Shown here piece by piece: positions 3,822 to 62,771 of a stretch of DNA of 64,000 bases. Every line of letters begins with the position of its first letter. The stretch's first letter is position 1. The notes beneath the pieces are model-generated. The model did not search any database. It was not told the DNA's origin and worked only from the letters and a program-made list of their open reading frames with translations. This DNA is from Blasia pusilla (taxonomy: Eukaryota): the NCBI GenBank assembly GCA_050084515.1, contig CM114271.1, forward strand, positions 30,566,001-30,630,000. Direction: 5' to 3'. The position numbers and the translations under genes were made by a program.

Positions 3822-4230
3822 CAAGGTTGCATGCAAACAGACAAGTCCGTCCATGGGACAAACATGCTCGGCTCATATCCAAGCATGCACGCAAGCCCGC
3901 CACGTAGACCCAGGCTGAGAAAGCCCACACCTATTGCGTGTCCCGCAACCAAGCCCCCAAGGTGGGCTTGGTCCGAATTGGGCGTGCTCAAGCCCTATGC
4001 GGGCTTCTAGCCCGCCGTGCGGGCCTGAGCTCGCCCAATGGGGGCCAAGCCCACCTTGCAGGCCTGGTTGCGGGCCACTCAAAGGGTGCGAGTTCCGTCA
4101 ATCTGGGTCTACGCAGTAGGCTCCGAGCGGACTCGGGTACGGGATGTAGATATTCGGGCCCGCACGGATATATCCATCCTATAGACGGACATAAGTCCAT
4201 GGACATGGACTTTGTCCATGTGCAACCTTG
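3822..4230. mobile_element. hAT-like MITE (copy 2) nested in retrotransposon copy X
   Basis: 10-bp perfect TIR CAAGGTTGCA...TGCAACCTTG; 8-bp TSD TCCATAGT/GCCATAGT (one mismatch); no credible coding capacity. Confidence 0.85.
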
Positions 4231-5679: not shown

Positions 5680-5681
<2 letters not shown>

Positions 5682-5736
<55 letters not shown>

Positions 5737-5738
5737 GA
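5682..5738. repeat. (GA)n microsatellite inside a retrotransposon terminal repeat
   Basis: Direct reading. Confidence 0.95.
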
Positions 5739-13855: not shown

Positions 13856-14793
13856 AGACCTTCTACCATGTTGTAGGCAACCCCTCAACCTATGGGATCC
13901 ATCACACGTCCAACACATCAAACCTAGTCCTTGTTAACCAACATAGATATGCATGGATCGTTTCTTGACAGGCTCATCAGACCCCCTCTGCTCTAGGCAC
14001 ATTGACCTTCTCTCATAGCACTTGTGGTGCTACTAGAACCCATGGATCCATCAACTGTGGCAAGAATCTTGTGATCACAACATACTCCTCGCTCATATTG
14101 AGCTCAATCTGCTCAAACAACTCAAAGATCCCCTTCAATGTGGGTTTCGTCGTGCAAACCAACATGGCATCCCAGACTATCCTCCGCAGATCCCAATCTA
14201 GAATCTCGTACCAATACTTAATTGAATGTGCCTCAATTACTCCATGAGTGGCAATCATTAGTCATCGCATGCGCATGAACGCCTCTCATAGACTCCCACT
14301 TGATTACAATTAAAGCTCCTAAAGACCTTCTACCATGTTGTAGGCAACCCCTCAACCTATGGGATCCATCACACGTCCAACACATCAAACCTAGTCCTTG
14401 TTAACCAACATAGATATGCATGGATCGTTTCTTGACAGGCTCATCAGACCCCCTCTGCTCTAGGCACATTGACCTTCTCTCATAGCACTTGTGGTGCTAC
14501 TAGAACCCATGGATCCATCAACTGTGGCAAGAATCTTGTGATCACAACATACTCCTCGCTCATATTGAGCTCAATCTGCTCAAACAACTCAAAGATCCCC
14601 TTCAATGTGGGTTTCGTCGTGCAAACCAACATGGCATCCCACACTATCCTCCGCAGATCTCAATCTAGAATCTCGTACCAATACTTAATTGAATGTGCCT
14701 CAATTACTCCATGAGTGGCAATCATTAGTCATCGCATGCGCATGAACGCCTCTCATAGACTCCCACTTGATTACAATTAAAGCTCCTAAAGAC
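13856..14793. repeat. 467-bp near-identical tandem duplication within gag remnant, followed by a deletion-riddled third copy (about 14875-15190)
   Basis: AGACCTTCTACCATGTTG occurs at 13856 and 14323; the ORFs at 14002 and 14469 are nearly identical (offset 467). Confidence 0.9.
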
Positions 14794-15207
14794 TCTTGAG
14801 CTTGTAGGTCCACACGCTCTAGTAGCTCCTTCCGGACTCTCAAAAGAACTCCATTGTAGGAATAAAACTAGGTGGCCTTCATAGCACCTCACATGGATCC
14901 ATCATCACAAGAATCTCACTCATCTCTATATTGAGTCAATGGGCTCAAACAACTCAAAATCCCCTTGGTGGGTTTGTGGGCAACATGGCATCCCACACTA
15001 TCCTATCAGATCTCACTCCATTAATTGAATTTTATGAGTGGCAATCATTAGTCATATATGAACGCCTCTCATAGACTCCCACTTGATTATATTAAAGCTC
15101 CTAAAGACTCTTATAGGTCCACACGCTCTAGTAGCTCCTTCCGGACTCTCAAAAGAACTCCATTGTAGGAATAAAACTAGGTGGCCTTCTACAATATCCA
15201 TCACTCT

Positions 15208-15230
15208 ATATATATATATATACTATCCAT

Positions 15231-15275
<45 letters not shown>
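15208..15275. repeat. Interrupted (TA)n microsatellite
   Basis: Direct reading. Confidence 0.9.
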
Positions 15276-15279
<4 letters not shown>

Positions 15280-18200
15280 TCACAACCACTAGTGGAAACA
15301 TACTCTAGATCCCAGTCTATCGTTCAAGAAATGATATCTACAACGTGTAAGGATCGGAACTCATGAGAATCATCAATAGGAATTACCTCCAAATGCTAGA
15401 ATAAACCCTTCAAAACCATAAAAGGGTTGAACTGCGTAGGGGCTCGTATCTCCTAGAAATCATGCCACTTGTTAAAATCTTTGATGAAATCATTTTTAAG
15501 TCGAGGGTGCCTACCGCACATGAAAATTGATGCATGCCACCAAGGCTTATATTGTCTATCTCTCTACACGTGTCAATGTCCCCATTTATGATCTAGTCAC
15601 TAAACCCACTTCCCAATGATGACAATAGCGATGCAACCATGGATGAGAGTTGAGGTGGTTCCTTACTCAAAACCCCTTCATGCCTCACTCCCGAGCTCAC
15701 TCCATTCCACATAATACACTACCATTGCTCAAACTACCCTATTCTTCCGAACCTTTGAAGAATGTCGTGATGATAACACTGCCTCACACACTCAAGCACT
15801 CAAACTCACCACAAGGCCCCCACACTCCTCACTAGCTCATTTACACTGCTGCTAGTCCCATAACAATAGACCCAACATCACACACACTCAATCACTTGGG
15901 CTCGCCTTGAGCTTCCTGTACTAACTCACCTAAACTATCAAAAATCTCGTCTCATTACACAAGACACTACTCAAGAAACCACCCTACACCCACAAGCACG
16001 CTACGTGCACAAAGAGTTTATACTCAACACCGTCGCTACACCCATCTGGCACTAGCTCTACATAATAACAAACACCCTTAATGACGCGAGACAAATGCAT
16101 GAAAAGGGACTCAAATAGGTAATCTAAACACACGCACCATCACTCTACAACACAGTTAATACTCATTGCTCCATGTGGCACGGCAACCCCCGCGCCACAA
16201 CAATCTCTTCAAACAGCATGATGTCAAACCTTCCATAAGTGGATGCATACTACGTATCAACATCAACGCTTGTGTGTCCCCCTCTAGCACTCCATCATAG
16301 ACCCTCGAAGTCGATCATCCATTTCGACATTTCCAAATTTCAAACATTTTCATTTGGGATTTTGGATCAATGGAGAAGAAGAATAGATCCTCTTTTTTCC
16401 GATGCTCTTTGGAGGGCAAGAGAGAATCCCTTTGGTCCAATGCATTGCACTAGCATAAAAGCACTAATCATTACTATAATAGTTTGGATATAGATAGTAA
16501 ATAACAACATGATTAAAAAAAAAAAAATCTTAGAAACATGGTCTTAATAAATATTTAAATTTTATTTTTACCAATACAAACACTCATTGTTTTTTTTCTT
16601 CATCTAGTCCATCCACGTGGCCTCCAGTAATTGCGAGGCCTCCAGTAATTGCGGTTCTCAAAATTATTCCTCATTTTTTTTCCTATCCATTTGTGTTCCA
16701 CACGTGTTTATTAATTATTTTACCCCGCACCCCTCTCAAAGGACCGAAAACTAAATTAATTACTCCCCACCTACCCAGGGCCGCATGACTTTGTTTTATT
16801 TTTTAAAAAACAGAGTCATCCTTCCCTGTTGTAATAAGAAATACATATCCCTCTCCACCACGAGTCACAAATGATGCCAATTCCCCACTAGCACGCATCT
16901 CTTAACATTTATGGAGAAATTACAATTCCCGATATTAGCTAGGGACTTTGGATGGATTCTCTTGCATATACGACGCTTTCATTTCTTGTCGCTTATCGCA
17001 TCCTCACGGGAGACATTTGGTCGCTTCGGTCGACGACAGCTGGCTGCCACCTCATGATCGACGGCAGCGACTGCGGGAGGAAAGCGGGTGGGTGGAGTAC
17101 CGATCCTGCCGAGACTCCGAAGCATCTCGTGACGAAGAGGACCTGTGACTGACGCTTTCCGTTCCTCGCTCGCTCGCCGCTCTCTCTCGCGCTCAATCAA
17201 CAAGTGGCGTGCCAACGCACATTTGCGAGCGTCTCGCACGTTTTTCCCCTGTGAGGGTCCTTCTTCCATTACGAGACGTCCGGTGGTAGGTCTCGTCTAA
17301 TTTTCTCGTTTCATTCATCGAAGGGACTGGCGGCGGCGAGGATCAAGATCTCGATCGTTGTCGCTTGGGTTTTGGGCGGGGACGTTGGGTTGGCTTTATC
17401 CGTTGCGTTTTCCTCCGAGCGGACGGGATTGGTTTCGGGGCGTGTAGAGTCAATCTGGGGTTGGCTTCCCACAAGTAGGAGACTTTTTCCTGACATGCAT
17501 TCCACTCTTAAGGATGTCCCTTCTTCCACCCCTGCGTTTCTACCTTTGTTCGTCCGTTGCCATGGTCTTTCAGCCTTTCGGGATTGATTTATCGCACGAA
17601 TGTCCGTCCCTCATGGCCGTACTCCGGGTACTCGATTGTGGCAGTCCTCCGGTATGCGCGGGCGGACTGCCGCCAGAGGATGTCCCACAGTTCCACATGC
17701 GGGAATTCTCAGCGGAGACCGACGTGCGGAAGGTGACTGACTGCTCGGGGGCTCAAAGTTATGGGCGGCTCTTGCCATCGTTCTTTCTTAATGAGGTGCG
17801 TCCCATGGGCGTCCCAGGAACCCCACTCCACGTCCGACGGTCCGAGACCGTGATTCTCACCTCTCATCACTGAGCCGTCTTTCTTTTCATGGGTGGCGGG
17901 AGTATTTGGGATATCCACGGCCTCTGCAAGTAAGTGATGTTTTCTGTTGTGCTCATCCACGTGGACTCCATCCATTCACCATCTACGTGCCATAGGGGCT
18001 GGGGCTGTCAAAGGGCCGCACACTGGTTTCGCAAACTGCTGGGATCAGCCCAAGTTCCTCAGCCCCACCTCAGCAGAGATCGAAGATAGCCTGTGAACCC
18101 TCATCCTCATGAACGCAAACTTCCTCGCGCCTCCATCCGAGTTGTCTGCAACGAAGACCCCCGCTTTACTAGCGTGTGCGTGCGAGCGACTTGCTCCTGC

Positions 18201-35250: not shown

Positions 35251-35973
35251 GACTCAAACCTCATGTAGGCAAGGAGGCAAGGCAGGAGATAACATAAGGA
35301 TAGCTGCAAGTTTAGGAAATTTGTCGTGCGCATACACATCGCTACACAACCCACATCGCTGGTCACATCTACACACCACACAACACTGATCTTCCCAACA
35401 CACGGATCGATCCATCCATAAACCAAACACTCACACATATACATCGAAACCCCACAACAAAAATAAGAGTAAAAACGGCACACCCGGCCTAAAACTCCAC
35501 TCCTCAATCTACATCGGCATATCGAACCTCTTCCATCCTGCGCTATCAAGGAATTCGTACGCTAGCACCCTGGTCCTATCTCACACACGAACAAGAGAGG
35601 TGCTCCAACGGCCCAACGTGAGAAAGATGGCTTGAGAAAGCCATCTTCCTCCCTTATATAGATGTAGGAAGAGCCAAAAGGCTCTTCCCCTAAAAATAGC
35701 CACCCCCTGATAAACTTTACGCACAGGTCATCAAGGGCGGATGACCTGCTGAACAAGTCATTCGGCTGTGAAAGACCCCAACAAGAAAGTCGTCAGAAAC
35801 GACGTTTTTTGACATAACGGACCTATCCTCAACCTCATCCGACACCTCGAGATGAAGTTACACTCAAAACAGTCCGATGGCTCTCTATGCCGTCACCACG
35901 ATAGATCTCTACCTATCGGCTACTAAGATGTGATAGCTTTCGTGCGCATACACATCGCTACACAACCCACATC

Positions 35974-36150: not shown

Positions 36151-39100
36151 CCTATCGGCTACTAAGATGTGACAGCTTTCGTACGCATACACATCGCTAC
36201 ACAACCCACATCGCTGGTCACATCTACACATCACACAACACCGATCTTCCCAACTCACGGGTCGATCCGTCCATAAATCAAACACTCACACATATACATC
36301 GAGACCCCACAACCGCCTCCCTAGTTGGCAGTGGGGTCCCCCTAACTCCAGATAGTAAACATCTATGTACCTGACATGATCTACTATCCTATATACATCT
36401 AGCACCATTGGTGCCGTCATCCCCGCAACACTGCCACACTGCAGCAACCCGCCGTGTTGATCCCTCCAGAGAGATCTAATACACTCATACCCTACTCCAA
36501 ACATAAGCACCGCTCCACGCCTGCCTCACGAGCTCATTTGCACTCCATGCATCTCAATGCTTGTCCCCAATAATAATAAAGAAGCTCTGCACCATGGGAA
36601 GAGACATCCACCCTAGCATGTCTCTCCATGGGACTATTCGCTACGGAAATGTCCTCCGTATGTGTGCTCCTCTCCCCAAACCCTCCTGATCAGCGAACAC
36701 CACTTGTGAATGCTACCAACGTGGTCGCCGTATCCTCACGTGGTCGACCACCACTACTCCCTGCAAACAACACTGGTAGATGGCTCACCCATCCATCACC
36801 TGATCGCCACCCTGGCCGATAAGAAACCGTCTCCTCCCAAAACTCCAGAATAAAACCAAGGGGATACAACACTGTACTCCCTACCAACACATCATACGAC
36901 TCTGCCGATGTCGTAATCGCCCGAGTGCGCACCATTGCACTATCCAACTCATGCTTTGGCTGGAGTCTAACCACCAACTCCTATTGAGTTGTGTATTGCG
37001 TGGGTGATACACCTCCAATAGAAGTATGTATCTGAAAGGGACAATGCTCAATGTTGCCTTTCCGTAACCGCAACGCCAAACACGCCACCTTCCCTAGGCC
37101 TAACATCAAGGGTTGCGCTCCTGAATCAAGTAGGAAGCCTTACGGGTGGTACACCCTACATGTAGGACTAACCAAGCAAAACACTCATGCTCGGTTATCC
37201 AACAACACCATACCAGGTGTGATCATGGCTCGCTCTATGGACAGTCGAATTGGCATATCTACCAACTTTGCCACCGCCGTATGCCATGTCTCAGTGGAGG
37301 ACGTCCAGAGTACCTGCTCCGAGGGTAAGTCCACCACCTCCTCAACAACCTCTGAACGAGAGGCAATCACCTTTCCATGCTCGCACAACGTGGCAGCCAA
37401 CCGGAACACCTAAGTTGGTCGAACTCCCAACGTCGCCAACTCTATGGCGGAAAATAGCGGAGCTTGGCTCACCCTGGTGGCCACCTCCAACACGTAGTCG
37501 ACATTGACTCCACTCGAGCCGGCATAGGAGCTGTCACTCCAACTTCTCGTGACGTCGACGCACCTGCCTGATTTGTAGGCACCGCTGGTCGTCGAGGCGT
37601 CATCAATGATATGTGTAGTGCCTCGAACAATGTGAATGATTGTGGAACCCTGGCCTGCCGCCCTTTTGTCCCCTCATGTGGGTCAATCTCAACCCCACCT
37701 CTCAATGGCTTGGTTACTCTCGCAGCACTCCGAGCCACCACCCCAGCAGCCTCAACCTGAGCCGCACTACAGATAAATCCCATCCCCGTAGAATCCTCAC
37801 TAGCATTGTGGTAAGATGTGGAGGCTGGCGCCACACTAGCTACTCTCAGCTCCAAACCTGCCTATAGGTGCATCATTGTCATGGAAAAAATCCTCTGCTC
37901 CAATTGATCAATGCGCGTAAGGAGCGCTGCATCGGGTGTATGTCCTCCATCTCTTATGGATAGTGATGGCACTTTACCACCATGATCATCAACTCCTTGA
38001 TCTCCACCAACTCTCTCGCCTCCAGACCCTCTACCTACCTCTAGACGTACCCCTCGGCAAAGATCAAAACACGTATCCCTAGTGTGACCATATCGATGAC
38101 AATGATCACACTGTAACTAAGGCGGGGCCATCCTCTGTGGCTCTTGAGCAATTGGAGGTGCATGTGGCCCTCTCCCATACTGTGGGCAGTCCCTCTTCCT
38201 ATGTGGCCCACCACACGTCCAACAAGCCAACCCTGGTTTGTGCTGGGAAACATATGTCGGTACGGGCTGTTGCCTCATTTTCTCTCGACACCCGCCTTGA
38301 TCTCTAGGCTACCCCTCGGGCTACCCGGCCCGCTCCCGTGGTAGTGGTGCATGTTGGGGTACCTGTGGGTCTATTCTTACTCGTCGACGCGTCGAATTCC
38401 GCAAAAATATCGTGGTCACCACATGCTCCTCACTCATGTTGAGCTCTGCTTGCTCAAACAACTTGAAGACCACCTTCAATGTGAGCTTCGCCGTGTGAAG
38501 CAACATCGCATCCCAAACTCTCCTACATAGCTCCTCGTCCAACACTTCGTACCAATACTGTATTGATTACATCTCATTCACCCCATATGTTGCAATGATC
38601 AATCTTCGCATGCGCGTGAATGCCTCTCTCAAGCTCTCACCTGATCGTCGTTGAAAATCCTGTAGACTCTTCAGCTTGTCGGTGCGTACGCCCTGGTAGC
38701 TCTTCCCCAACTGTCGGAAGTATTGAAGATTGAGTTACAGTCAAGCTCATGAGATACCTAAACTGCTACATTTGGTACTCACACGAAGTAGGGAAGTTTA
38801 ATCTTGGTTAGTCAGTTAAGCGCGATTATCTTAACTAGGGTTAGTTAATCACAGTTAGTCTAACTCAAGACTATGGTTAAGGTTAGGGTTAGGGTTGCTT
38901 GTACATACCCTATATAATTGAGAAGGGGATCAGCCTCCACTCATTCTCTCATTACAAATGTCGTTCTCCATGGTGGTGTGTGAGTGTGAGAACCGTTTCC
39001 CACCAATTATGCTTCTTTAGCAGACATCGATCTCTACTGAATAAAATGATCGGAACTCCATGTAATCATCCATCAGAGGACCCTCCAAGTGCTAGAACAA

Positions 39101-39187
39101 ACCCTTCCATGCCATGAAAGGGTTGAACTGTGTCAGAGTGCGCATCTCTTGGAAGTTGCACCACGTGTCAAACTTATGGATGAAGTC

Positions 39188-39797
39188 ATCCTCGATTGGA
39201 ACTATAGTTCTAAATGGCATGCTCATAACATTCCTACATTTGAGACAAATATAGAATCAAAACCTAAGTTCTGAGTGTGTCCCAAACTGCCACGCCCGCT
39301 GAACATTATTTGGATCCATATTCAGTCTAAGTCCAATTTCGGCCGTAAAAGGCGTTTGTTAAAAGGAATTCCCCATCCTCGATTGGAATTTTAGTTTTGA
39401 ATGGCATGCTCCTAACATCCTATGTCTGAAACAAATATAGAATCGGAACCTAAGTTTTGATTGTGTCTGAAACTGCCGTGCCCGTTGAACATCATTTGGA
39501 GCCATACTTAGTCTAAGTCCGATTGGATCCTAAGATCCAATTCTAGCCGTAGAAAGCGTCCGATAAAGGGAAATCCCCATCATGGATTGGAAATATAGTT
39601 TCAAATGGCATGCTCCTAAGATCCCTATGTGTTCAAAAAATGTAGAATCAGAACCTAAGTTCTATATTGTGTCCCAAACTGCCGCGCCCGCTGAAAGTCA
39701 TTTGGAGCCATACTTGGTCTAAGTCCAATTGGATCCTAAGATCCAATTCTAGCCATAGAAGGCGTCCAATAAAGGGAAATCCCCATCCTTGATTGAA
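39188..39797. repeat. Three units of the 205-bp tandem repeat (reverse orientation relative to 1-900) inserted in the gag of copy Y
   Basis: CATCCTCGATTGGAA-like unit starts near 39188, 39374, 39578 and 39784; reverse complement of the array at the window start. Confidence 0.9.
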
Positions 39798-42109
39798 ATT
39801 GTTGTCCCGAATAGCCCTGAATTGGCTCCATAGATCCCAATAGGTTGGGAACGCCCATTGCACCCTAGAAACGACGTATGCCCCGATGGCTCATGTCATC
39901 CATGTCTTGCCAAGTGACACCTCCTCCGTCTGCAATCTTGTCACCAGACCCGTTGTCTAGTGATGATGATCTAGCTACGGATGGAAGTCGAGGTGGCTCC
40001 TTGCTCGTAATCCCTCGATATCTCACTCCACTCCGTGTCACACCACCACCACTGCTCAAACTACCCTGCTCTTCCCAACCCTGGAGGAACGTGGTGATGA
40101 TAACCCGATCTCACTCGTTCAAACACTCAGACTCACCAAGAGTCTCATGCACTCCTCACTAGCTCACCTATGCTAATAGTAATCCCGTGATGACACACCC
40201 GGCCTCACGCACACTCAACACTCGGGCTCACCCTAAGCCTCCCGACTCACATAAGCTAAGGCTAATACCGCGAGAACACATCCGGCCTCATGTACACTCA
40301 ACACTCGGGCTAACCCTGAGCCTCCCGACTCATATCAGCTACCTGCCCCCTTGCATCTTTCTCATGTAAAAATAAGAGTAAAAACGGCACACCCGGCCTA
40401 AAATTCCAGTCCTCAATCTACATTGGCATATCGAGCCTAGTCCATCCTGTGCTATCAAGGAATCTGGACGCTAGCACCTTGGTCCTATCTCACACACGAA
40501 CAAGAGAGGTGCTCCAATGTCGCAGCGATGGCCCAACATGAGAAACATGGCTTGAGAAATCCATATTCCTCCCTTATATGGGTGTAGGAAGAGCCAAAAG
40601 GCTCTTGCCCTATAAATAGCAACCCCTTGGTAACCTGCTCGTACATGTTACCAAGGGCGGGTGACGTGCTGAACAAGTCATCCGACTGTGAAAGACCCCA
40701 ACAAGAAAGTCGTTAGAAACGACGTTCCTGACAGAATGGACCTATCCTCAACCTCATCCAACACCTCGGGACGAAGCTACACTCAAAACAGTCTAATGGC
40801 TCTCTATGCCATGGCTACTAAGACGTGACAAACTTCTAGTGTATGGATGTGGCACATTTGGTATTCTCAACACATAGTGCAACTACCGATTAGATTGAAA
40901 TGAATGGAAGTAGTTTTCTTTTTGGTACTAATATGATATTTTTGGGTGTTCATGATGATTGAATGAAAGCGTTCATACGAAGTGATTTTATTATTATCAC
41001 TTGGCCTTGATCCGTGGACAATGCTAAGAATTAAGGGCTTTCCAAAGTTGTTTTGTGATTGTAATTTTGGTCCGAACTTTGTGATTATGTCTTTACAAGT
41101 GTACAGAAATCATGTGAGTATTATGCGAGTTTATAGCTAGTCTAGAATGAGCCAAACCCAAATTGCAAGTACATTTTTTTTGCAAGTTAAGTTGTTTGCA
41201 AGTGTCACGTCCTTTAGGATAGATCGGTGAGATCTAGTAGAGCGTCTTCAAGAGTAGTGGAGGACACGCCTAGGAGGTCGAGGATGACGTGTTGAGGCCC
41301 GGGAAACTTGAGAGAGCAGGTTTCCCCTTCGTTTTGGCTCATTTGGAGCCATATTGGGGAACTTACTATTTTAGGTAAGTACCATTTTGAATATATGATC
41401 AACTTTCTATTTTTGGTAAGTGGCCCTTGACCTCCTACATCAGGTCAAGAGCCAAGGAGGTGACTTGGGAGAATAGGTTACCATGGAGAGAGCTTGGGAG
41501 AGGGGAGGGGTACATATCCCAAGGAGAGAGATCTTACTTTACAAAGAGAGAATGAGAGAATGAGAGAGTGAGAGAGCTTCATGGGGGAGCTCGCTGGTCA
41601 CTCGATGTTTTTGCAGGTTGGGGACCGTGTTCCCTGTTCAACGGCTCATGGGAGTGCTCATCGGAGCAAGGGTTGCTTGGATTGTTCTTTGCATTTGCCA
41701 ATTTTTCGTGTGGAAGAGTGGCGCGCGGAAGCGCTGCCCAGTTTCTTATAGGGATTGAGTATGGGGGCGGGTTGCCCCATGCCGGTGCTTTCGGGAGCAC
41801 CATATTGCTTGCTGATTTGCATTTTTACAGGTTTTATATTTTTGTTGGGAGGTATCAGCACGGAAGTGCTGCCGAATTCTGTGTAGGAGAAGGAGACATT
41901 GGGCTTTACGATAGTCCCTGTCAGTTTTTACTGGAATGTCCGATTCTAAATATTTTTTGATGTTGGCGTAGATCGTGAAACTGTGCACGCTGTGCAATAA
42001 ATAGTGCACAATTTGGAGTTGTGAGAAAAAAATTTATGATCAATCTTGCAAAACTGCCATTGCTAGGCGATTTTTAGGGTTTAATTGTGCAAACCCTAAA
42101 CCAAACGCC

Positions 42110-42270
42110 ACACCGGCGGCGGCTGTCGCCGTCATAGTCACCGTCACTGTCAACGGTCAACCATCACCGTCAATGGTCAACCGTCACCATCAATGGTCAA
42201 CCGTCACCGTCAACGTTCGGCCGTCATCATCAACGGTCAACCGTCATCATCAATGGTCCACCGTCCGTTG
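42110..42270. repeat. Degenerate ~20-bp minisatellite (CCGTCACCGTCAATGGTCAA-like) in the 5' region of the retrotransposon
   Basis: Repeated CCGTCA..(G/A)TCAA(C/T)GGTCAA units. Confidence 0.75.
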
Positions 42271-43440
42271 TCCATCCTTAGTTGCCATTGCCGACATTAC
42301 GGAGTGGAGGGTCTTCCACAACGTTCGTTGATTCTCGAACTTGCGTCGCCATCACGTCCTTTGTTTTGGCCGCCACCGTCATCAACCTGTGATGGCATAT
42401 GACCTCCTGTTATAGTGTTTGAGTTTTGATTTCATGCTGCTATGTTGTGATTGGTAGCCGCTCAACGACGATCGGGTACCGTGCCGTGACGCCCGTAGCC
42501 GCAACGCGCCGCCGATTGCCGCGTCGTGCTGCTTGTGGCCGCACCGCACCGTCTCGATCGCGGAACCGCTCCGGCATTGTGGAGCACAGTGTGGGTTTAT
42601 TGTTGATTGAGGAGGGTATGCCGCCGAGTGCCGCATCCCATCATGGAGGGCCGTGCCGTTCGTAGCCGTTCCGTGCCGCCTGCAACGCCACACCGTTCCA
42701 CTGGAACCGCACCGTCTATCGAGGAGTTTTGAGCAACGTCAGTACGGGAGGAGTATGACTTGCTGATTGGAGGAGTTGTCTCCATGATCGAGTTGGGGTC
42801 GAGATTTGCAGTTGCTGAGGAGCGACATTGACAGGTGTTCAGGTTACCAATTCTGGTCCTTTACCCTACACATGTGAGGGATTCTGGGATTTGGATAGTT
42901 TATTTGGGGATACTGGGTGTGTGGATGCTGAGAGCATCATTTATGTATGTGGTTTAGGGGACATAGACCTGTGTGGGATGTCCGGAGTTGAGGGTAGGTT
43001 ATCGATGAAATGATAACATGGTCGATTTGCCCTACCACGCCGCTTATTGCCGCACGTTACATGTCTCGGGGAGGGAGAGTGTAGATCGAGTGCCGCATGT
43101 TTGGGATGAGTGATTGAGGGATTACTCGCGAGGCAAGAGTGATCGGGTGAGAAGGGCACGAGGGTCATCACGGCGTCCGTTCGGGACTTTGAGAGGCGAG
43201 GTGGTGAACCCGAGAGTAGCTCTAGAGGTTTTACGCGGAGTGGCGTGAGGTTCCGAGGGTCTTCACTTCAGGGACCACCTCGACCTCTTCGTGTCATCGT
43301 CGGATGAGGGGAGGGTGTAGAGGAGTTTGTGAGCACATCGCCACACATTGTGAGTGGTCCTACCAATTGGGGCGTTTGAGATGGACACCGGGGTAGACGC
43401 GGCAGCGGTGTAGGTTTTCAGTGCGAGAGGTGCGATTGAG

Positions 43441-44796
43441 TTGCACGATTTCATAGCAGAGTTTAGAAGTTGGTGCGACTCCCAGCGGGCCATGAACTCT
43501 AGAGAGTTCAACCCGTTTACAACATGGAACGGTATGTTCCAGCATTTAGAGGGGGCACCCATGGACGATTACCATGAGTTCTCCCATAGATATGCCCAGG
43601 AGATTGAGGCATGGCAACTCTACTACGACCCCCACTATGTGTCATGGACGGAGCCGTTCCCAGATGAGGAGGAGTCAAGAGAGGCTACTTCCTCTTCCAC
43701 TAGTGATGTTTTAGGAGGGGTCACTCGCACTGGAGCAGTTGCACCGTCTAGTCGCGTTCGACCCAGGTTCAACCCCGTGGTTGAGTTCTTTGCTGAGTTG
43801 AGGGCGAGCTACCAGGGGGTACGGACGGAAAAGTTGCGGAGCATCCACATCTTCCAGAGGCGCCCGGGTGAGAGTTTACGTGAGGCTTACACTCGCTTGC
43901 GCCGGTTGATCAACGTCACTCAGGGGGTGACAAAGGCTCAGGCTATCCAGTCATGGTACGCGATGCTGGACCAGACCCTGCGGCTACGGGTGCGGGAGGG
44001 GGTGCTTCTTATGAACACCTCCCCTACGTTGAGAGATGTTTTTAGGACCGCCGAGAACATTGAGCGCAATATGGCGGAGGAGAGCGTAGCCACCATGGGT
44101 TCTGGGCGAGAGCAATCGCGATTGGCTGCACCACTTGTGCAGCAACGTGGACTCCGAGATAGGTCAAGTGTGGCACCACAAGCTCAGGGAGGATACCTGG
44201 AGCCCGTGGCACAGAGACCTACGCCTTCATATGCAGCTCCACAACAGCCGCCTACTATTACTTGTTGGTCATGTGGTGGAGCCGATCATTAGCGCCATTG
44301 CACTCGTCATGGTCATGGACGTGCGCCTCAACGTGGAGGAGGAGGTGCTGCTGCACCAGGAGGTTATCAATGTGACAATTGTCAGAGGTATGGTCATACA
44401 CGCGCTAGGTGTTTTAGTTTACATCCTGAGTTACGTATGGACCGAGAGCCAGAGAGGGCACCAGGGCGAGTAGCCGGTCCGGGTGAGCCTAGAGATCGTG
44501 CACCAAGTGGTCCCGTTGGGGGACGAGGAGCTGGAGTTGCCCGACAGGGTGGTGGAGATGCCCGTGGAGGAGGTAGAGTACTACCACCTAGACGCGCCCA
44601 AGGAGATGTCGGACGTGAGGCTAGGATGGCTGCTCAGATAGAGCAGCTACAGGAGCAGATTGCCGCTATGGCATTGAGGTTACTAGATGTTGGATCTATG
44701 ACATCGACATCATATGGAGCAGCCAGAGATCTAGAGGATCTTGGTTGGATGTGCGGGGTTGCCCAGATGGAGGCCGCCGCAGTTGTGACGCATTGA
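43441..44796 (+). pseudogene. gag: Retrotransposon gag with two zinc knuckles
   Basis: FQRRPGESLREAYTRLRRL (gag-type Q..GES motif). CWSCGGADH*RHC and, in the same frame past the TAG at 44290, CDNCQRYGHTRARC (CX2CX4HX4C, 44371-44412). Confidence 0.88.
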
Positions 44797-45299
44797 GGAG
44801 CCGCAAAGTTGGATCCACAACGAGGGGAAGCCAAGAAACAGACTAGGCTTCCTTAGTCTTTCACGTTGTCTAAGGCGATGAGGACCCCATTGATGGGTCC
44901 TGATCAGAGTCCTTGGAGAGCTAGTGATGTTGTTGGTGTGCAAGCACGAAGGGCAATGGGAGAAGCAAGTACAACGACTCTTATTGTTGATGCTCAGGAG
45001 GGGCATGTGTCGAGCACGTTGTTGGGGGCGGCTACCGGTGTGTACCGCACTCCTTTATTTTCTGCTTCCGATGTTATGACGTTGGGGGGTACGCCCGCCG
45101 AGGCTTTTCGGCTGGCCGCTTCACTATGTGAGCGCACAGTTGGAGTTCCTGCATCACGTTCAGAGGTGATTGCAGAGGAGGTGATGGACCTACCCTTGGA
45201 GGGGATGCTCGGGCCGTCCACGTCAGATGCATGGCAGGCTGCGGCTGCTAGGATGGCAGAGATGCCCGCTAGACCCGCGATAGAGCGTGCCATGGCTTC

Positions 45300-45750
45300 T
45301 CTTAGTGTTGTGTTGTTGGATAACCGAGGAGAGGTATTCCAATTGGTGAGTCTCGGAGGTAGAGCTTTTCGTCCGCAGCGCGTCTTGTTGGATTCAGGAG
45401 CGCAACCCCTGATGTTGGGGAAGGCGTCATGCAGAGGATTGGGCTTGACGAGAGCCGATGTGGAGTGTTGTCCATTCCGGATACAAACATCCTTAGGTGG
45501 AGCGAGTACCACATAGTATATCACCCGACAGGAGGTCGTGGTGAGAATTCTCCCGGGACATCCTACAGATGAGTCCGTGGTGCGAGCCAAGGCGATAGTG
45601 ATTGATGCAGAGTCCTACGACGTCTTGGTTGGTGGAGTAGTGTTATATCCGATGGGGTTTGCCCTGGATTATTGGGAGGAGTCAGCGTCCTATAGACCAG
45701 GATGGCATTCAGGTGATGGGCGTCTTAGTTCATTACCCGTTCGATTCATA
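45300..45750 (+). pseudogene. Retroviral-type aspartic protease domain
   Basis: RVLLDSGAQPLMLG (DSG at 45391) and downstream SYDVLVGGVVL; in-frame TAG at 45514. Confidence 0.85.
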
Positions 45751-46104
45751 GGTGCAGTGATCGAGCAACGGCCAGGAGAGATGGCGACCTTAGCAGCATT
45801 TAGCAGTGCCATCACTTGGCCTAGTGATTTGATTGAGGGACATGTCCTTGCAGAGGATACTCCCGTTCCTGACATTTCTATGGAGAGGAGTGTTATGGTA
45901 GTTGCATCATTCCGTGGAGGAGAGGTGCCGCTATGGGGCTTGACTGAGAAGCTTCGACGATTGGCACATGAGAACGTGCAGACCGTGTGGAGCGAGGTGT
46001 TTGCACCGGAGCGGGATGGGTCTGAGGAACCCGAGGTAGGAGGGAGTGCTACGATGACACCCTTAGATACCACACCCATTGTGTGGTGTATCCCGGAGGA
46101 GGGT

Positions 46105-47050
46105 ATTCAAGTGTTAGATCTCTTTGGAGGGATTAGCACCGGGTTAGCTGCTGTTTTGCAGGCAGGAGTGCGAGTACAGCAGTACCTGTATGTGGAGAGT
46201 GATGATATTGAGACGCGCGTCTTACTACGATATATGGCGCAATTATGCCTCTGTTTTCCCGACTTATTGTCTGCGTCCGCGGTACAGGGATACCAGAGTT
46301 CCCTACCGAGGGATATTTCCTTGTTGGGGGCCTAGGACTTAGAGCGGGTAGGGACCATTGATTTGGTCATTGCGGGTTGGCCATGTCAGGGCCAACCGAG
46401 AGTTGGACGAGGTAGCGGGTTGGCTGACACTCGGTCTAGATTGTTTTGGGAGATGTTGAGGGTCTTACGGTAGTTGCAAGAGCACCAGTCTCGTTCTCCA
46501 ACCTACATTTTGGAGAATGTGCCGATCTTAGGAGACTCGAGGTCACGGATGGTGACGAGTGCTCATCAGGTGCGTCCCTGGATCGGCCCAGCATTGTTCT
46601 TGGATGTGGCGAGTGTAGGTTCTAGAGTCCATCGCCCGCGTCTATGGTGGACCAACTTGGTGCCCCTTGCGGTGTTACGGAGGGCGTATGCAAGAGTGGA
46701 GTGCCCTCCCATTTGTTAGTGGATTCCATTCTAGATCCAGGTCGTCCATCACAAGCAGTGAGGCACGATGATCGACCACCGCTGACTGTGGTCAACAAGG
46801 TAGGCAAGCCGCGGGCAGCCTTTCCCACGTTTGTGAGTTTTCCCGCTTCCTATGCATACAAGGAGGCCGGTCCTGGCTTGGTTTGGGATGACCAGGTTCA
46901 GGGGTTGGTGGAGCCCAATGGAAACCAGAGAGAGCGGGCGATGGGATTTCCCACATGAGTGACGGCAGTCCCGTCAGTATCAAAGGCATCACGACGCCAT
47001 ATCTTGGGTCAGGCGATGGACCTGAACTGCTTGATATGGATCTTCAGCTT
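46105..47050 (+). pseudogene. DNA (cytosine-5)-methyltransferase domain embedded in the retrotransposon polyprotein
   Basis: Motif I VLDLFGGISTG (46111); motif II-like YLYVESD; III-like RDISLL; motif IV IDLVIAGWPCQG (PC at 46381-46386); V-like DTRSRLFWE; motif VI YILENV (46513); motif VIII HRPRLWWTN (46633); motif IX RERAMGFP (about 46929); motif X RRHILGQAMD (about 46992). Stops at 46333, 46471 and 46956, and a frameshift near 46710. Confidence 0.92.
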
Positions 47051-47479
47051 GGGAGTGGTTGAGCAGCGTCGAATGAGATCGCGACAGATCACAGCGGTTG
47101 CGTTGGTGAGCCCCATGCCTATCGAGACGGTGGAGGCAGTGGCTGGGGGCGAGACCCGAGGAGATTGACACACCAGGGGAGATCGGGAGAGACACCCTTG
47201 GACTTCTTGGGATGTTTTGCGGGTACGCCAGGAGATGATAGCCACAACATCGAGCGTGGTTCCGAGCACTGCATGTGGAGGAGATCAGAGTTTGCAGTTG
47301 GCTGCACAAGAGCAGCTGAGCATTGTTGTTCGAGATGGGGTTGCACCATAGCAACCACCGATACTCGCGCCAGAGAGTCCTACCGTAGTCTCGATGGAGA
47401 CTTGGGAGCCAGATATGGGCCCTAAGTTGACAGGAGGGGAGCGGCACCGGATACATTAATTCCTCACGAGTTATAGGAG

Positions 47480-48200
47480 CTACTTTGCATTTAGCATGGA
47501 GGATTTGGGTATGCTAAAGGGATCGGGGATCCGCATTGAGTTGTCGAGTGATACGCCGATCTTCCGACGATCCTACAGGTACAGTGATAATGAGAGGGCT
47601 CTGATTCAAAGTAGGAGCTAGGACTTGGTCAGAGCAGGACTAGTGGAGATGTCCCATGAGGAGTATGCATCTGCCACTGTCATGCTCGCCAAGAAGGATG
47701 TGCATGGCAACTCGACGGATAGGCGGATGTGTGGGGATTACCGACCTATCAATCGACAGATGAAGTTCGATAGGTATGCCATGCCCACCCCTGAGGAGAT
47801 CTTTGATGCGATTGGTCACGCAAAGGTCTTCAGTTCATTGGATTTGCAAGTCGGATACCATCAACTGCCTATCAGATTGGAGGATAGGCCGAAGACGGTA
47901 TTTTGGGGCATCGATCCTCACGGGAAGGATTGTTTGTACTAGTGGCGGTTCTTACCATTTGGGTTAAAGAACGCCCCGGTTGAGTTTCAAAGGGTCATGG
48001 ATAGGATCTTGGCTGAACTAGATTTTGCTAGGTGTTATATTGATGACATCATAGTCTTTAGCGCCACGGTTGAGGAGCATGAGCGACATCTAGAGGAGGT
48101 GTTTTGACGATTGCAATTACATGGGTTGAAGCTACATCCAGACAAGTGGAAGTTCTTCTACGACCAGATTGAGTACTTGGATCATACGATATACCCAAGG
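47480..48200 (+). pseudogene. pol: Reverse transcriptase domain (Ty3/Gypsy)
   Basis: RMCGDYRPIN, FSSLDLQVGYHQ, LPFGLKNAP, CYIDDIIVFS (YIDD at 48036-48047); stop at 47940. Confidence 0.95.
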
Positions 48201-48407
48201 GGCCTTGGTGTTCAACATACAATGGTAGAGGCTATCTCACGCATTCCACGCCCTACAAATGTGAGCCGTGTTCGCGCATTCATGGTATTGGCGAACTTCT
48301 ATCAGCGGTACGTTAAGGGATTCAGTTTGATTGCGAAGCCCTTGACCTTGCTGACAAAGGTGGATCATGAGTGGCAGTGGGGGGATGAGCAAGAGTGAGC
48401 ATTTCAG

Positions 48408-48835
48408 TTGCTAAAGGATAGGTTGATGTCTGCGCCCATCTTGAGGAGACCGATCCGGGGGCGTCCTTTCCAGTTACACACAGATTGGAGCATGTTGGGG
48501 CTTGGAGCGGTGCTCACCCAACATGATGATGAGGGTAGAGAGTTCGTGGTGGCTTATGCTAGCCGCTCAAACAACGCTGCAGAGGCGAAGTACAGCTCGT
48601 ATGAGGGTGAGTGCTTGGCTGCGGTGTGGGATGTCGCGCATTTCAGGTGTTACTTATTCGGAAACCCCTTTACCATCATCACTAATCATCAACCACTGAA
48701 GTGGTTGATGGAGTCTGACAAGCTTACAGGGAAGCTTGCAAGATGGACTCTATTGCTGCATGAATATGATTTTCAGGTGATACATAGACGTGGGACGCTC
48801 AACCGGGATGCAGATGGGTTCAGTCGTAACCCATG
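48408..48835 (+). pseudogene. pol: RNase H domain (Ty3/Gypsy)
   Basis: FQLHTDWSMLGLGAVL, VAYASR, YSSYEGECLA, NHQPLKWL, ARW, NRDADGFSR. Confidence 0.93.
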
Positions 48836-49199
48836 CCCGAGTCAACGAGATGCGACTAGAGCTCGATGGCATGGAGAGAGTGATGAGGAGTCAGTGCCAG
48901 GATGGCACGTGTTAGCCTATTTAGGCATGTTGGCTATGGAGAGCCAGAGTGTGGAGACTTCGATGGCGAGGTCTAGTGGAGAGTCCTTGGATCCCGAGGC
49001 CAGTGAGGAGACGACAGGTGGCCGAGATATTCATGATAATGGAGTCGTCTTGGAGTACCTTTGTACTGGCAGCGTTGCGAGCACTATGGATGCTAGAGAG
49101 CGAGATCGGATCCTACAGCGGGCCAGACGGTTCCGTTGGGAGGGGACACATGTTTTGAGGGTTTGGGATGATGGTAGAGTACGCGTAGTGTCACATCCT

Positions 49200-50160
49200 T
49201 TGCTGAGAGCACGACTAGTGCAGCATGGCCATGAGGAGTTGGGTCACTTTGGGATGAAGCAGACGTACAGCTTCCTCCAGATTCAATATTAGTGGTGAGG
49301 CATGCAGACGGACGTTCAGCAGTTTGTTGCCACGTGCATGGTGTATGATCGGGTCCGAGCATCGTTCAATGCTCCGACTCCACAGTTGTATCCATTACCA
49401 ATCATAGGCTTAGGGTATAGATGGAGTTTGGATTTTGCAGGACCTTTGCCTTTGACGGAGCGTCATAGTCGTTATGTATTGGTGATGGTCGAACACTTCT
49501 CGAAGTGGATCGAGTTGGTTGCATTGCCTGACAAAGCGAGTGAGGGAGTAGCTTATGCCTTCCTTGACAGAGTGTTGAGTCATTATGGCGCACCGGCTCA
49601 GGTGTTGACAGACCAGGGTACCGAGTTTCGCGGTGAGTTCCAGGCCTTGTGTGATCAAGCGCTCATTGACCATCGTACGACTTCGTGAGATCATCCTGAG
49701 GCGGATGGATTAGCGGAGAGAGTTGTGTAGACGGTGAAAAGGAGTTTACGCAAGTATGGCTTGCAAAGAGGCCACCTAGGAGATTGGGACATCCAGTTGC
49801 CCTGGTTGGCGATGGGATACAGATTCAGCACGCAGGCATCCTTAGCGTCTTTTTCACCGTACTTGCTATTTTATGGCCAAGAGCCAGATTTACTTGCGGC
49901 CATTCGTCGAGATGCTGGTGAGGTGCTGGACCTTGATGACCTAGACATATGGATGCGAGCATATTCTCAGAGGGCTGAGTTGTTTCGGAGAGTGATGCCC
50001 ATGGTGTTCGAGAACTTGGCGATTGCGCAGCATCGGGATACGTTGAGGTATGCAACTATTCGGGGTGGTGGTTATCGACCAACTATCTGGAGGTTTCATC
50101 AGTGAGATTATGTCTACTTGCAGTAGACGGTACCGACGATGTTGGATGTGACTGCAGGGT
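49200..50160 (+). pseudogene. pol: Integrase (zinc-binding region plus DDE core), C-terminally truncated
   Basis: HEELGHFG...CMVY (degenerate HHCC), WSLDFAGPLP, VLTDQGTEF, HPEADGLAER. Stops at 49290, 49296, 49686, 49728 and 50103. Homology ends near 50160. Confidence 0.93.
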
Positions 50161-51300
50161 GCTCATTCTCTCTTTGTTGAACCTCTTGGCATGAGGCGGC
50201 GGAGCTATGGTCCCTTACCTTGTGAGTGTAACCCAAGCCTTTCATTAGGAGAGTGGGTTTGGTTTGACATGAGAGAGAGTGCACACCTTTGAGAGCTATG
50301 GTGTGAGATTGTGTAGAGAGAGATTGGATCTTACTTTATTGGAGATATTTTGGTACTTCTTGTCTCGTTGTTTGGATGCCATGAGTTAGCATGGGATCGT
50401 GCGTGTTTGTGTGTGTGTTCGGTGACAGCCATGTATGCTGTGTAGCGATGTGTATGCGCACGATACAAGGGTTTCCTATATTGTGAGAGTTTGGAGCAAC
50501 AAAGTACTTACAAAATAGTTGAAAGCAAAGTTGAGTACTTTGCAAGTAAAGCACTACCATGACTTGCAAAGTAACCATTTTCTGCAAGTATATTTTGTGA
50601 GTATGAGGACTCGCAAGACTCCTATGTCTACAACTTAGACTCACATGGAGGATTCAAACACAGAGAATGTTAGATAAGTGAGAATCACAATCTTTTGAGG
50701 AGTATTGCTAACAACTCCAAATTGATCCCTTGGGAGTATTACGTTCTAATTGCGTGTCACAATAAACTTACAAGTGGAAAAAAAATTGCAAATTGATGAG
50801 AGACGGGAAGATAAGGGAGAAAGAGGAGTGTGAGATGTTACATCACGAGATATTTGGGTTGTTTATATATATATAAAAATAAAATTATAAAAATTAAAAA
50901 CTCATAATTTTCTAAATCTATATATATAAAATTATCAAAATCTATTCATTAACATAAGAGAATTCACCACATGTCTTTTCTTTTGAATCTTAGCATGGGT
51001 AGGAAGCATTAAGTAACTAACGGGGCCTTAGGGATCCTAACTAGTAAATAATTATTTTGAAGCCGGCCATAGCTCACCTCGATGGATAGTGCTTACTCTA
51101 TTATGTATGGGTCTACATCAAACTGCACCATGAGGAACGTACGTACGTCACCGCAAACTTCCACCCCTATTAGATGGACACTAACATAGAAATGATGGAA
51201 TGACTCACGATTCTCTCAATAATCTTGTCGGTAAAATTGAGAGTCAAGTATTCTGAATACTTGACTCTCAACTTAGAAAAAAAATTTGACCAGTCTTTCT

Positions 51301-62531: not shown

Positions 62532-62578
62532 TTTTCAAGAAAACAAACGCAGACACTCACATGCAATTTGATCTTGCG

Positions 62579-62771
<193 letters not shown>

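What the first reader, a model, noticed from the sequence alone, without database searches (positions are those of the whole stretch)
46105..47050. A land-plant Ty3/Gypsy retrotransposon encoding its own C5 DNA methyltransferase between protease and RT
Seen: after the DSG protease and in the same frame, the polyprotein reads VLDLFGGISTG ... IDLVIAGWPCQG ... YILENV ... HRPRLWWTN ... RERAMGFP ... RRHILGQAMD, then continues toward RT. The ORF track hides this because stop codons split it, and the catalytic PCQ segment falls in no listed ORF. Established: these are motifs I, IV, VI, VIII, IX and X of DNA (cytosine-5)-methyltransferases. Their order is linear (DNMT3/bacterial-like), not the circularly permuted order of plant DRMs. 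I see no chromo, BAH or UBA domain and no introns, so it does not look like a captured host CMT, MET1 or DRM gene. From memory, DNMT-carrying retrotransposons were reported in dinoflagellates and charophyte algae (de Mendoza et al. 2018). I do not know of them as a standard feature of land-plant Gypsy lineages. Inference: active ancestors released the enzyme by protease cleavage and could methylate their own cDNA or LTRs, either for self-regulation or to evade host recognition. This copy is dead.
Basis: partly seen in the sequence, partly recalled or inferred. Interest (0 to 1): 0.95.

Follow-up and report, generated by a model that had tools for sequence, protein, structure and literature searches.

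The report
Liverwort retrotransposon carrying a DNMT3-type methyltransferase
A dead copy of a Gypsy-like retrotransposon in a liverwort-type genome really does encode a DNMT3-like cytosine methyltransferase between its protease and reverse transcriptase, and it belongs to a kind already described in the alga Klebsormidium, so the new part is its presence and transcription in land plants.

Summary
Window 46093-47060 (+) encodes a colinear C5 DNA methyltransferase domain (motifs I, IV, VI, VIII, IX, X). It lies in the pol frame between protease and RT-RNaseH-integrase. It matches Pfam PF00145 (E 9.9e-9), and DNMT3A/3B are its nearest solved relatives by sequence and by fold.

This is not a one-off. 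The search found 21 related long proteins, 14 from Marchantia polymorpha plus Calypogeia and Sphagnum. Closterium and Mesostigma carry the same PR-DNMT-RT order, and chlorophytes carry an RT-RH-DNMT-INT variant.

The copy is dead: 20 in-frame stops, one frameshift and truncated ends. Related copies are transcribed in sense.

The element has no LTR pair. A second copy in the window shows split repeats, A-internal-B-A-B. De Mendoza et al. 2018 report this same arrangement for KnitGypsy-Dnmt3.

Host genes point to a liverwort.

Verdict: a new member of a known kind. I found no open paper that names it in land plants. The enzyme's role is inferred, not shown.

The parts
41203..41553 (+). Copy P: 5' terminal repeat A1, starting TGTCACG, with an internal deletion of about 160 bp relative to transcribed copies
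   Evidence: In one search the loose end at 50463 continues into sequence matching 41203 onward. Joints 41535|GAGA|50161 and 50338->41554 place segment 50161-50338 inside A in other copies. Sequence read.
42120..42279 (+). Copy P: 20-bp tandem repeats in the leader
43414..44796 (+). Copy P: gag with two CCHC-like knuckles and in-frame stops
   Evidence: tblastn to Marchantia P0006 gives 47% identity. Translation. Pfam gives no hit in the window copy. zf-CCHC is found in relatives.
45262..45720 (+). Copy P: aspartic protease, DSG at 45391-45399
   Evidence: 56-58% identity to Marchantia. Asp_protease_2 is found in relatives. No Pfam hit in the window copy.
46093..47060 (+). Copy P: DNMT3-like C5 DNA methyltransferase domain, motifs I-X in linear order, with 3 stops and 1 frameshift near 46705-46712
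   Evidence: The fold of an intact relative matches DNMT3A/3B.
47403..48398 (+). Copy P: reverse transcriptase
   Evidence: RVT_1 E 1.3e-27
48399..48800 (+). Copy P: RNase H
   Evidence: RT_RNaseH E 2e-33 and RT_RNaseH_2 E 1.2e-31
49299..50159 (+). Copy P: DDE integrase core. The internal region breaks off at 50159.
   Evidence: rve E 6.9e-14. The loose end at 50159 shows that other copies continue differently.
50161..50338 (+). Copy P: tail of repeat A2
   Evidence: joints
50339..50463 (+). Copy P: repeat B2. Its last 60 nt are 82-83% identical to the B repeats of copy M.
40368..40830 (-). Copy M: 5' repeat A1
   Evidence: 87% identical over 444 nt to 35459-35891, E 4e-157. Start read.
36431..39190 (-). 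Copy M: gag, protease and a remnant of DNMT motif I (36498-36431). The rest of pol is deleted.
36179..36313 (-). Copy M: repeat B1, preceded by a purine-rich tract
   Evidence: 94% identical over 135 nt to 35324-35458
35459..35973 (-). Copy M: partial B (35973-35940) directly followed by repeat A2 (35935-35459)
35324..35458 (-). Copy M: repeat B2, abutting A2
3232..6057 (+). Further fragments of the family: A tail plus B (3232-3459), protease fragment (4261-4943), then B, part of A, part of B (5281-6057)
12851..15494 (-). Further fragment: gag pieces (15494-14064) and an A repeat (13194-12851)

Best explanation
Window 41203-50463 (+) is a decayed copy of a retrotransposon family. Its single gag-pol frame reads gag(CCHC)-protease-DNMT3-like methyltransferase-RT-RNaseH-DDE integrase. 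Its ends are split direct repeats (A-internal-B-A-B), not LTRs.

It is a liverwort member of the Gypsy-DNMT3 kind first described as KnitGypsy-Dnmt3 in Klebsormidium nitens.

Shown here:
- the domain, its DNMT3 affinity and its conserved catalytic motifs
- its stable linkage to PR and RT in relatives from Marchantia, Calypogeia, Sphagnum, Closterium and Mesostigma
- conservation equal to that of RT
- the A-B-A-B repeat layout
- sense transcription of related copies
- the death of this copy

Inferred: in active relatives the methyltransferase is made as part of the polyprotein and released by the protease. It therefore sits with RT and integrase in the particle. My odds for what it then does are:
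- about 0.45 that it methylates the element's own new cDNA or its integration site de novo
- about 0.25 that it acts on other DNA in trans
- about 0.2 that it no longer methylates DNA
For: Domain identity:
- PF00145 E 9.9e-9.
- DNMT3A is the best PDB sequence match at 9.4e-10 and is colinear. DRM2 aligns only over query 194-321 with chain 225-346, as expected for a permuted enzyme.
- An AF2 model of the intact Calypogeia relative has pLDDT above 90 over about 310-640. Its best Foldseek hits are DNMT3A/3B, E 3e-17, TM 0.83 by target.
- The Atlas structure neighbours are DNMT3A.
- Motifs I, IV (PCQ), VI (ENV), VIII, IX and X line up across 20 aligned members.

Family membership:
- 21 of 5395 scored candidates reach E<=1e-3. 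Of these, 14 are Marchantia polymorpha, 1 Calypogeia, 1 Sphagnum and 5 unnamed.
- Pfam finds PF00145 in 6 of 8 relatives tested, and in P0011 together with RVT_1 and RNase H.
- One-ORF proteins P0079, P0203 and P0213 carry CCHC, DNMT, RT, RNase H and integrase, and P0079 and P0203 also a protease hit.
- The full HMMER scan gives 2596 hits at E<=1e-3 and 447 at E<=1e-10.
- Of the 150 best representatives, 70 carry retroelement domains next to the DNMT: 22 of PR-DNMT or DNMT-RT type, 38 with RT/RH upstream, and 10 with only integrase downstream.

Linkage:
- In the DNMT tree (72 rows) the window falls in a 14-row bryophyte group with SH-aLRT 100. The RH-DNMT-INT type forms a 26-row group with support 98.
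- The RT-RH tree (27 rows) splits the same two architectures on one branch with support 100.
- Identity of the window copy to Marchantia by domain: gag 47%, PR 56-58%, DNMT 60-66%, RT 63%.

Repeats:
- No LTR pair was found.
- Copy M has A1, B1, A2 and B2 with A2 abutting B2.
- Read joints give the same adjacencies for copy P's family.
- A third locus shows B, part of A, part of B.
- The 2018 paper gives 'A-coding region-B-A-B' for the DIRS arrangement. It says the K. nitens element has that repeat structure with Gypsy domains.

Transcription: three RNA runs laid 3085, 2807 and 3295 reads over 41500-50692, at least 10:1 with the first mate on the minus strand.
Against: - I could not obtain any K. 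nitens sequence, so kinship with KnitGypsy-Dnmt3 rests on architecture and repeat layout, not on a tree. K. nitens was never named in my hit lists.
- The trees are unrooted, built with the 'quick' method, and lack host DNMT3 and DRM outgroups.
- The repeat layout of copy P is inferred from short reads of other copies at 90-95% likeness. Only copy M shows it directly, and M also has an extra partial B-A stub.
- Only 12, 33 and 17 RNA reads per run are 99% or more alike. The transcripts therefore come from other copies whose coding state I could not see, and read-through transcription is not excluded.
- Enzyme activity is unproven. The K. nitens Gypsy DNMT gave no methylation in yeast, which the authors call inconclusive.
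- Pfam does not recognise the gag or protease of the window copy itself.
Confidence: 0.8

Rival explanations
1. The bryophyte elements acquired their DNMT3 domain independently of the Klebsormidium elements, by convergent capture. They would then be a new variant rather than a member of the same lineage.
For: De Mendoza 2018 documents repeated independent captures. Two different domain orders exist in green organisms. K. nitens never appeared by name in my hit lists.
Against: The unusual combination is shared: Gypsy pol, DNMT3 in Pol, and A-internal-B-A-B repeats. The same PR-DNMT-RT order occurs in Mesostigma, Closterium and bryophytes, and these rows lie outside the well-supported RH-DNMT-INT clade in the unrooted DNMT tree. 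The absence of K. nitens names reflects that few rows carry any name at all.
Confidence: 0.12
2. The methyltransferase domain is retained for a role other than DNA cytosine methylation, for example DNA or chromatin binding for targeting, or action on RNA.
For: The KnitGypsy-Dnmt3 domain gave no detectable methylation in yeast. Several relatives read WECQ instead of WPCQ at motif IV.
Against: The catalytic Cys-Gln, ENV, and motifs I, VIII, IX and X are kept across distant members. The fold matches active DNMT3A/3B. The yeast negative was also seen for human DNMT3B, so it is uninformative.
Confidence: 0.2
3. The domain is a fragment of a host DNMT3 or DRM gene that merely lies next to, or was hit by, a retrotransposon in this locus.
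For: Bryophytes do have host DNMT3 genes (passages).
Against: It lies in the same reading frame as PR and runs into RT. It is colinear with single-ORF polyproteins from several species. A second copy in the window keeps motif I after its protease. It has no introns and no PWWP, ADD or UBA domain. Its motif order is not the DRM order.
Confidence: 0.02

Closest known systems
KnitGypsy-Dnmt3 of Klebsormidium nitens (de Mendoza et al. 2018, PMC5890265; sections 9 and 10 read in full, other passages by search)
   Same: An intronless, non-permuted DNMT3-type domain inside the Pol polyprotein. Gypsy-type domain set. Repeats arranged as in DIRS elements (A-coding-B-A-B). Copies are methylated or silent in the host according to the paper.
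   Different: The host here is a liverwort-type land plant rather than a charophyte alga. I could not see the K. nitens domain order (figures are not held) or its sequences, so sequence kinship is untested.
SymbioDIRS-Dnmt3 of Symbiodinium (same paper)
   Same: A DNMT3-type domain in a retrotransposon with A-coding-B-A-B repeats.
   Different: Those elements use a tyrosine recombinase and a DIRS-type RT. The window element has a DDE integrase (rve) and Gypsy-type RT/RNase H.
Host DNMT3A/3B (animals), plant DNMT3 and DRM2
   Same: The catalytic fold and motifs. DNMT3A/3B are the best solved matches.
   Different: The element domain has no PWWP or ADD (animal DNMT3) and no UBA, and its motif order is not permuted (DRM). 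Identity to DNMT3A/3B in the structural alignment is only about 22-24%. It is embedded in a polyprotein.
Chlorophyte RT-RNaseH-DNMT-integrase(-PHD) polyproteins (Scenedesmus, Haematococcus, Monoraphidium and many metagenome proteins; found here)
   Same: Their DNMT domain is 31-44% identical to the window's, much closer than animal DNMT3. The pol is Gypsy-type.
   Different: The DNMT lies between RNase H and integrase. A PHD finger (PF00628) is recorded for most of them. They form a separate group in both the DNMT and the RT trees.
EpiLTRs of Cymbomonas and Euglena (bioRxiv 10.64898/2026.05.21.726589; passages only)
   Same: LTR-type retrotransposons that carry a cytosine methyltransferase.
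   Different: According to the preprint, their DNMT is sister to DNMT4, is appended at the 3' end of pol, and comes with an adenine methyltransferase and a chromodomain. None of these is present here.

Membership tests
C5 DNA methyltransferase, DNMT3 type | Pfam PF00145 match above the curated cut-off | tested here: met
   35.5 bits against a cut-off of 22, E 9.9e-9. Also met in 6 of 8 relatives.
C5 DNA methyltransferase, DNMT3 type | Motifs I, IV (Pro-Cys-Gln), VI (Glu-Asn-Val), VIII, IX and X in linear order | tested here: met
   Alignment with DNMT3A is colinear.
C5 DNA methyltransferase, DNMT3 type | Nearest solved relatives are DNMT3A/3B, by sequence and by fold | tested here: met
C5 DNA methyltransferase, DNMT3 type | Catalytic activity on DNA | not testable with these tools
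   The only published test of a Gypsy-type DNMT was negative and called inconclusive.
Host DNMT3 or DRM gene | PWWP/ADD (DNMT3) or UBA plus permuted motifs (DRM); a multi-exon host gene | tested here: not met
   No such Pfam domains. Motif order is linear. The domain is in frame with PR and RT.
Ty3/Gypsy LTR retrotransposon | pol order PR-RT-RNaseH-integrase with a DDE integrase and a gag with CCHC | tested here: met
   The DNMT is inserted between PR and RT.
Ty3/Gypsy LTR retrotransposon | A pair of long terminal direct repeats | tested here: not met
   No LTR pair in copy P. Copy M has A-internal-B-A-B instead.
Gypsy-DNMT3 (KnitGypsy-Dnmt3 kind) | A DNMT3-type domain inside the Pol ORF of an element with Gypsy domain composition | tested here: met
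Gypsy-DNMT3 (KnitGypsy-Dnmt3 kind) | Repeats arranged A-coding-B-A-B | tested here: met
   Direct in copy M. By read joints for copy P's family. A partial third locus. Definition taken from the paper's legends.
Gypsy-DNMT3 (KnitGypsy-Dnmt3 kind) | Sequence clustering with the K. nitens copies | not testable with these tools
   No K. nitens sequence could be fetched and supplements are closed.
DIRS retrotransposon | Tyrosine recombinase instead of a DDE integrase | tested here: not met
   rve integrase E 6.9e-14. No recombinase hit.

The most novel reading that the evidence does not exclude
Gypsy-DNMT3 elements with A-internal-B-A-B repeats form one old streptophyte lineage (Mesostigma, Klebsormidium, Closterium, liverworts, Sphagnum). 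That lineage crossed onto land with its host and is still transcribed, perhaps still mobile, in liverworts. Its methyltransferase has been kept under selection as strong as that on RT, so the element needs its own de novo methylation activity. The chlorophyte RT-RH-DNMT-INT-PHD elements would then be either a domain-shuffled sister lineage or a second capture of the same enzyme type.
Probability: 0.4. Interest if true: 0.7.

Novelty: new member of a known kind. Interest (0 to 1): 0.55.

Why it matters
Liverworts, Marchantia above all, are tractable models with methylomes, methyltransferase mutants and transformation. If the family is active there, a question left open in 2018 becomes directly testable in a land plant: what does a retrotransposon gain from carrying its own DNMT3?

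The family also matters for annotation. Marchantia 'hypothetical proteins' with PF00145 can be mistaken for host methyltransferases when DNMT repertoires are counted.

An integrase-bearing element with DIRS-like split repeats is also a puzzle for models of cDNA synthesis and integration.

Tried and rejected
- Whole-genome search of the window's assembly: none is held.
- LTR search in copy P by exact-seed repeats, BLASTN and Smith-Waterman found nothing above shuffled controls. The best local score was 27, against a shuffled maximum of 26. I therefore dropped the ordinary-LTR model. A tandem-LTR or solo-LTR reading fails because it does not give the A-end to B-start adjacency seen in copy M, in locus 3232-3459 and in DNA contigs.
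- The look-up of sequencing runs: no RNA holder was listed. The RNA evidence comes only from laying three raw-read runs.
- Naming K. nitens relatives: 30 of 30 representatives looked up. Only Scenedesmus, Closterium and Mesostigma names were returned.
- The profile search was dominated by the chlorophyte-type architecture, and only 120 of its 196 hits were listed.
- No host DNMT3 or DRM sequences could be fetched as an outgroup, so no root and no direction of transfer can be claimed.
- Literature: searches, plus passages, found no open paper that names such elements in liverworts or other land plants. Supplements of de Mendoza 2018 and later DNMT surveys were closed and may list them.
- Pfam gave no hit for the window's own gag, protease or DNMT C-terminal half on their own.
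- I rejected host-gene capture at this locus, a DRM origin and a bacterial methyltransferase origin. M.HhaI scores only E 0.027, against DNMT3A at 9.4e-10.

Full report
THE OBSERVATION

The protease DSG is at 45391-45399. Motif I (VLDLFGGISTG) starts at 46111, the PCQ cysteine codon is at 46384-46386 and ENV is at 46513-46521. All lie in one frame. After a frameshift near 46705-46712 the domain continues through RERAMGFP and RRHILGQAMD and runs on into RT.

The domain holds three stops (46333, 46471, 46956). The PCQ piece lies between the first two and is too short to appear in the ORF list.

Pfam gives PF00145 at E 9.9e-9, 35.5 bits against a cut-off of 22. Downstream it gives RVT_1 (1.3e-27), RT_RNaseH (2e-33) and RT_RNaseH_2 (1.2e-31), and an rve integrase core (6.9e-14).

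Against PDB sequences, 53 distinct chains reach E<=1. The best is DNMT3A at 9.4e-10, colinear over query 196-382 and chain 16-182, followed by DNMT3B and DNMT3C. DRM2 (about 9e-5) aligns only query 194-321 to its C-terminal residues 225-346, which fits DRM's permuted order and the linear order here. M.HhaI scores only 0.027.

A FAMILY TRAIT, NOT A ONE-OFF

A search among longer proteins found 21 hits at E<=1e-3 out of 5395 candidates, at 42-68% identity. Fourteen are Marchantia polymorpha 'hypothetical proteins', one is from Calypogeia fissa, one from Sphagnum fallax, and five are unnamed. Pfam finds PF00145 in 6 of 8 of these tested. Marchantia P0011 carries PR-DNMT-RT-RNaseH in one piece.

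The window holds further related fragments. One is a second copy on the minus strand (copy M). It keeps gag, protease and a recognisable remnant of motif I at 36498-36431 before an internal deletion.

A full HMMER scan with the N-terminal half of the domain found 2596 proteins at E<=1e-3, 447 at E<=1e-10 and 15 at E<=1e-30. I mapped the window's own domains onto the 150 best representatives:
- 22 have PR or gag upstream, or RT downstream, of the DNMT.
- 38 have RT or RNase H upstream.
- 10 have only integrase downstream.
- 80, mostly short fragments, show the DNMT alone.

Uninterrupted proteins of 2138-2327 residues carry CCHC, DNMT, RT, RNase H and integrase in the window's order, and two of the three also give a weak protease hit.

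Few rows carry names. The PR-DNMT-RT type includes Closterium spp. and Mesostigma viride. The RT-RH-DNMT-INT type includes Scenedesmus, Haematococcus and Monoraphidium, and most of the latter also record a PHD finger.

LINKAGE AND CONSERVATION

In a DNMT-domain tree of 72 rows (quick search, unrooted) the window sits in a 14-row group with Marchantia, Calypogeia, Sphagnum and three unnamed rows (SH-aLRT 100). The RH-DNMT-INT type forms its own 26-row group (support 98). An RT-RNaseH tree of 27 rows separates the same two architectures on a single branch (support 100), and there the window pairs with Marchantia.

Identity between the window copy and Marchantia is 47% in gag, 56-58% in protease, 60-66% in the DNMT, 63% in RT and 80% in RNase H. 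At greater distances the DNMT again tracks RT and exceeds protease.

The catalytic and cofactor motifs are kept across 20 aligned members. Several algal members read WECQ rather than WPCQ at motif IV.

An AlphaFold model of the intact Calypogeia protein is confident (pLDDT above 90) over about residues 310-640. Its best PDB matches are DNMT3A and DNMT3B catalytic domains (E 3e-17, TM 0.83 by target, 22-24% identity). The Atlas's own model gives the same neighbours.

ANATOMY AND THE ENDS

Copy P carries 20 in-frame stops and one frameshift over 2248 codons.

No LTR pair could be found by three methods.

Copy M explains why. On its sense strand it reads A1 (40830-40368), an internal region, B1 (36313-36179), a partial B (35973-35940), A2 (35935-35459) and B2 (35458-35324). 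A1 and A2 are 87% identical over 444 nt. B1 and B2 are 94% identical over 135 nt. A2 abuts B2, and no B lies upstream of A1.

I laid three RNA raw-read runs and one DNA contig set of the best-holding organism on 41500-51000. This gave the same adjacencies for copy P's family: B end to A start, A end to internal region, purine-rich tract to B start, and A end to B start. In copy P itself, A1 has lost an internal piece, and the internal region breaks off at 50159. That break is followed by the A tail (50161-50338) and B (50339-50463).

A third locus (5281-6057) shows B, part of A, part of B.

De Mendoza et al. 2018 define the DIRS arrangement as 'A-coding region-B-A-B'. They state that the K. 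nitens element has this repeat structure with a Gypsy domain composition. The window elements share that odd combination, and they carry a DDE integrase rather than a tyrosine recombinase.

HOST AND EXPRESSION

An exon of a tyrosine-aminotransferase-like gene (54905-55249) is 74% identical to Riccia fluitans, 73% to Marchantia paleacea, and at most 56% to vascular plants, among 27 hits at E<=1e-10. A pectinesterase-like ORF lies at 61585-62330. The host is therefore a liverwort-lineage land plant, though not one of the named species.

The three RNA runs laid 3085, 2807 and 3295 reads across the element. Almost all have the first mate on the minus strand, which in most stranded libraries means sense RNA. 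However, 2627, 2296 and 2725 of them are only 90-95% alike, and just 12, 33 and 17 are 99% or more alike. Related copies are therefore transcribed, and this copy hardly or not at all.

HOW IT PROBABLY WORKS

The coding layout and its conservation are shown. The rest is inferred. The methyltransferase is translated within gag-pol and freed by the protease. It therefore travels with RT and integrase, and it is best placed to methylate the new cDNA or the integration site.

The 2018 paper showed de novo CG methylation for the dinoflagellate DIRS enzymes. It found none for the K. nitens Gypsy enzyme in yeast, a negative the authors call inconclusive because human DNMT3B also failed. I hold self-methylation at about 0.45, trans action at about 0.25 and loss of DNA methylation activity at about 0.2.

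NOVELTY

The kind is known (2018). Later papers from the same group speak of streptophyte retrotransposon DNMT3s and of 'streptophytes (Gypsy-DNMT3)'. In eight full-text searches and passages from eight further papers I found no statement that such elements occur in liverworts, mosses or any land plant. Supplements were closed and may list them.

I rate it a new member of a known kind. It brings useful extras: land-plant hosts, the shared split-repeat layout, evidence of transcription, and a broad green-lineage distribution with a second domain order.

Noticed in passing
proteins P0061, P0074, P0255, P0256, P0280 and many rows: A large group of Gypsy-type polyproteins carries a related DNMT between RNase H and integrase, and most also record a PHD finger (PF00628). 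Named members are from the chlorophytes Scenedesmus, Haematococcus and Monoraphidium. The group is abundant in metagenome assemblies. I found no paper describing this architecture.
   Followed up: partly
protein P0022 (Sphagnum fallax): The Sphagnum protein sits inside the liverwort group on a short branch, although mosses and liverworts are old lineages. This could reflect slow evolution, horizontal transfer or a contaminant contig. The gene model is also patchy.
   Followed up: no
protein P0274: A full RT-RNaseH-integrase polyprotein of this eukaryotic family is labelled in its source as coming from a Minisyncoccia bacterial MAG. This is probably a mis-binned eukaryotic contig.
   Followed up: no
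window 39145-39830 and 40163-40328: Tandem repeats with periods of about 200 bp (three to four units) and 83 bp (two units) lie in the leader of copy M, between its A1 repeat and gag.
   Followed up: no
window 47511-48587, 47629-47938, 48273-48305: Joints seen only in RNA reads skip 1075, 308 and 31 bases inside RT/RNase H. Their ends are not GT..AG. They may be deletion derivatives among the transcribed copies rather than splicing.
   Followed up: no
window 41500-50692: Differences between the window copy and laid reads are dominated by transitions. Window C or G read as T or A (256-328 places per RNA run) outnumbers the reverse (166-189).
   Followed up: no
window 50464-50692: The stretch just after copy P's B2 still has high read and contig depth, then depth falls to zero at 50693. 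It is probably a piece of another repeat next to the element.
   Followed up: no
window 53687-56403 and 61585-62330: Host genes: a multi-exon tyrosine/nicotianamine-aminotransferase-like gene and a pectinesterase-like ORF. A long (GA)n microsatellite lies at about 62540-62800.
   Followed up: partly
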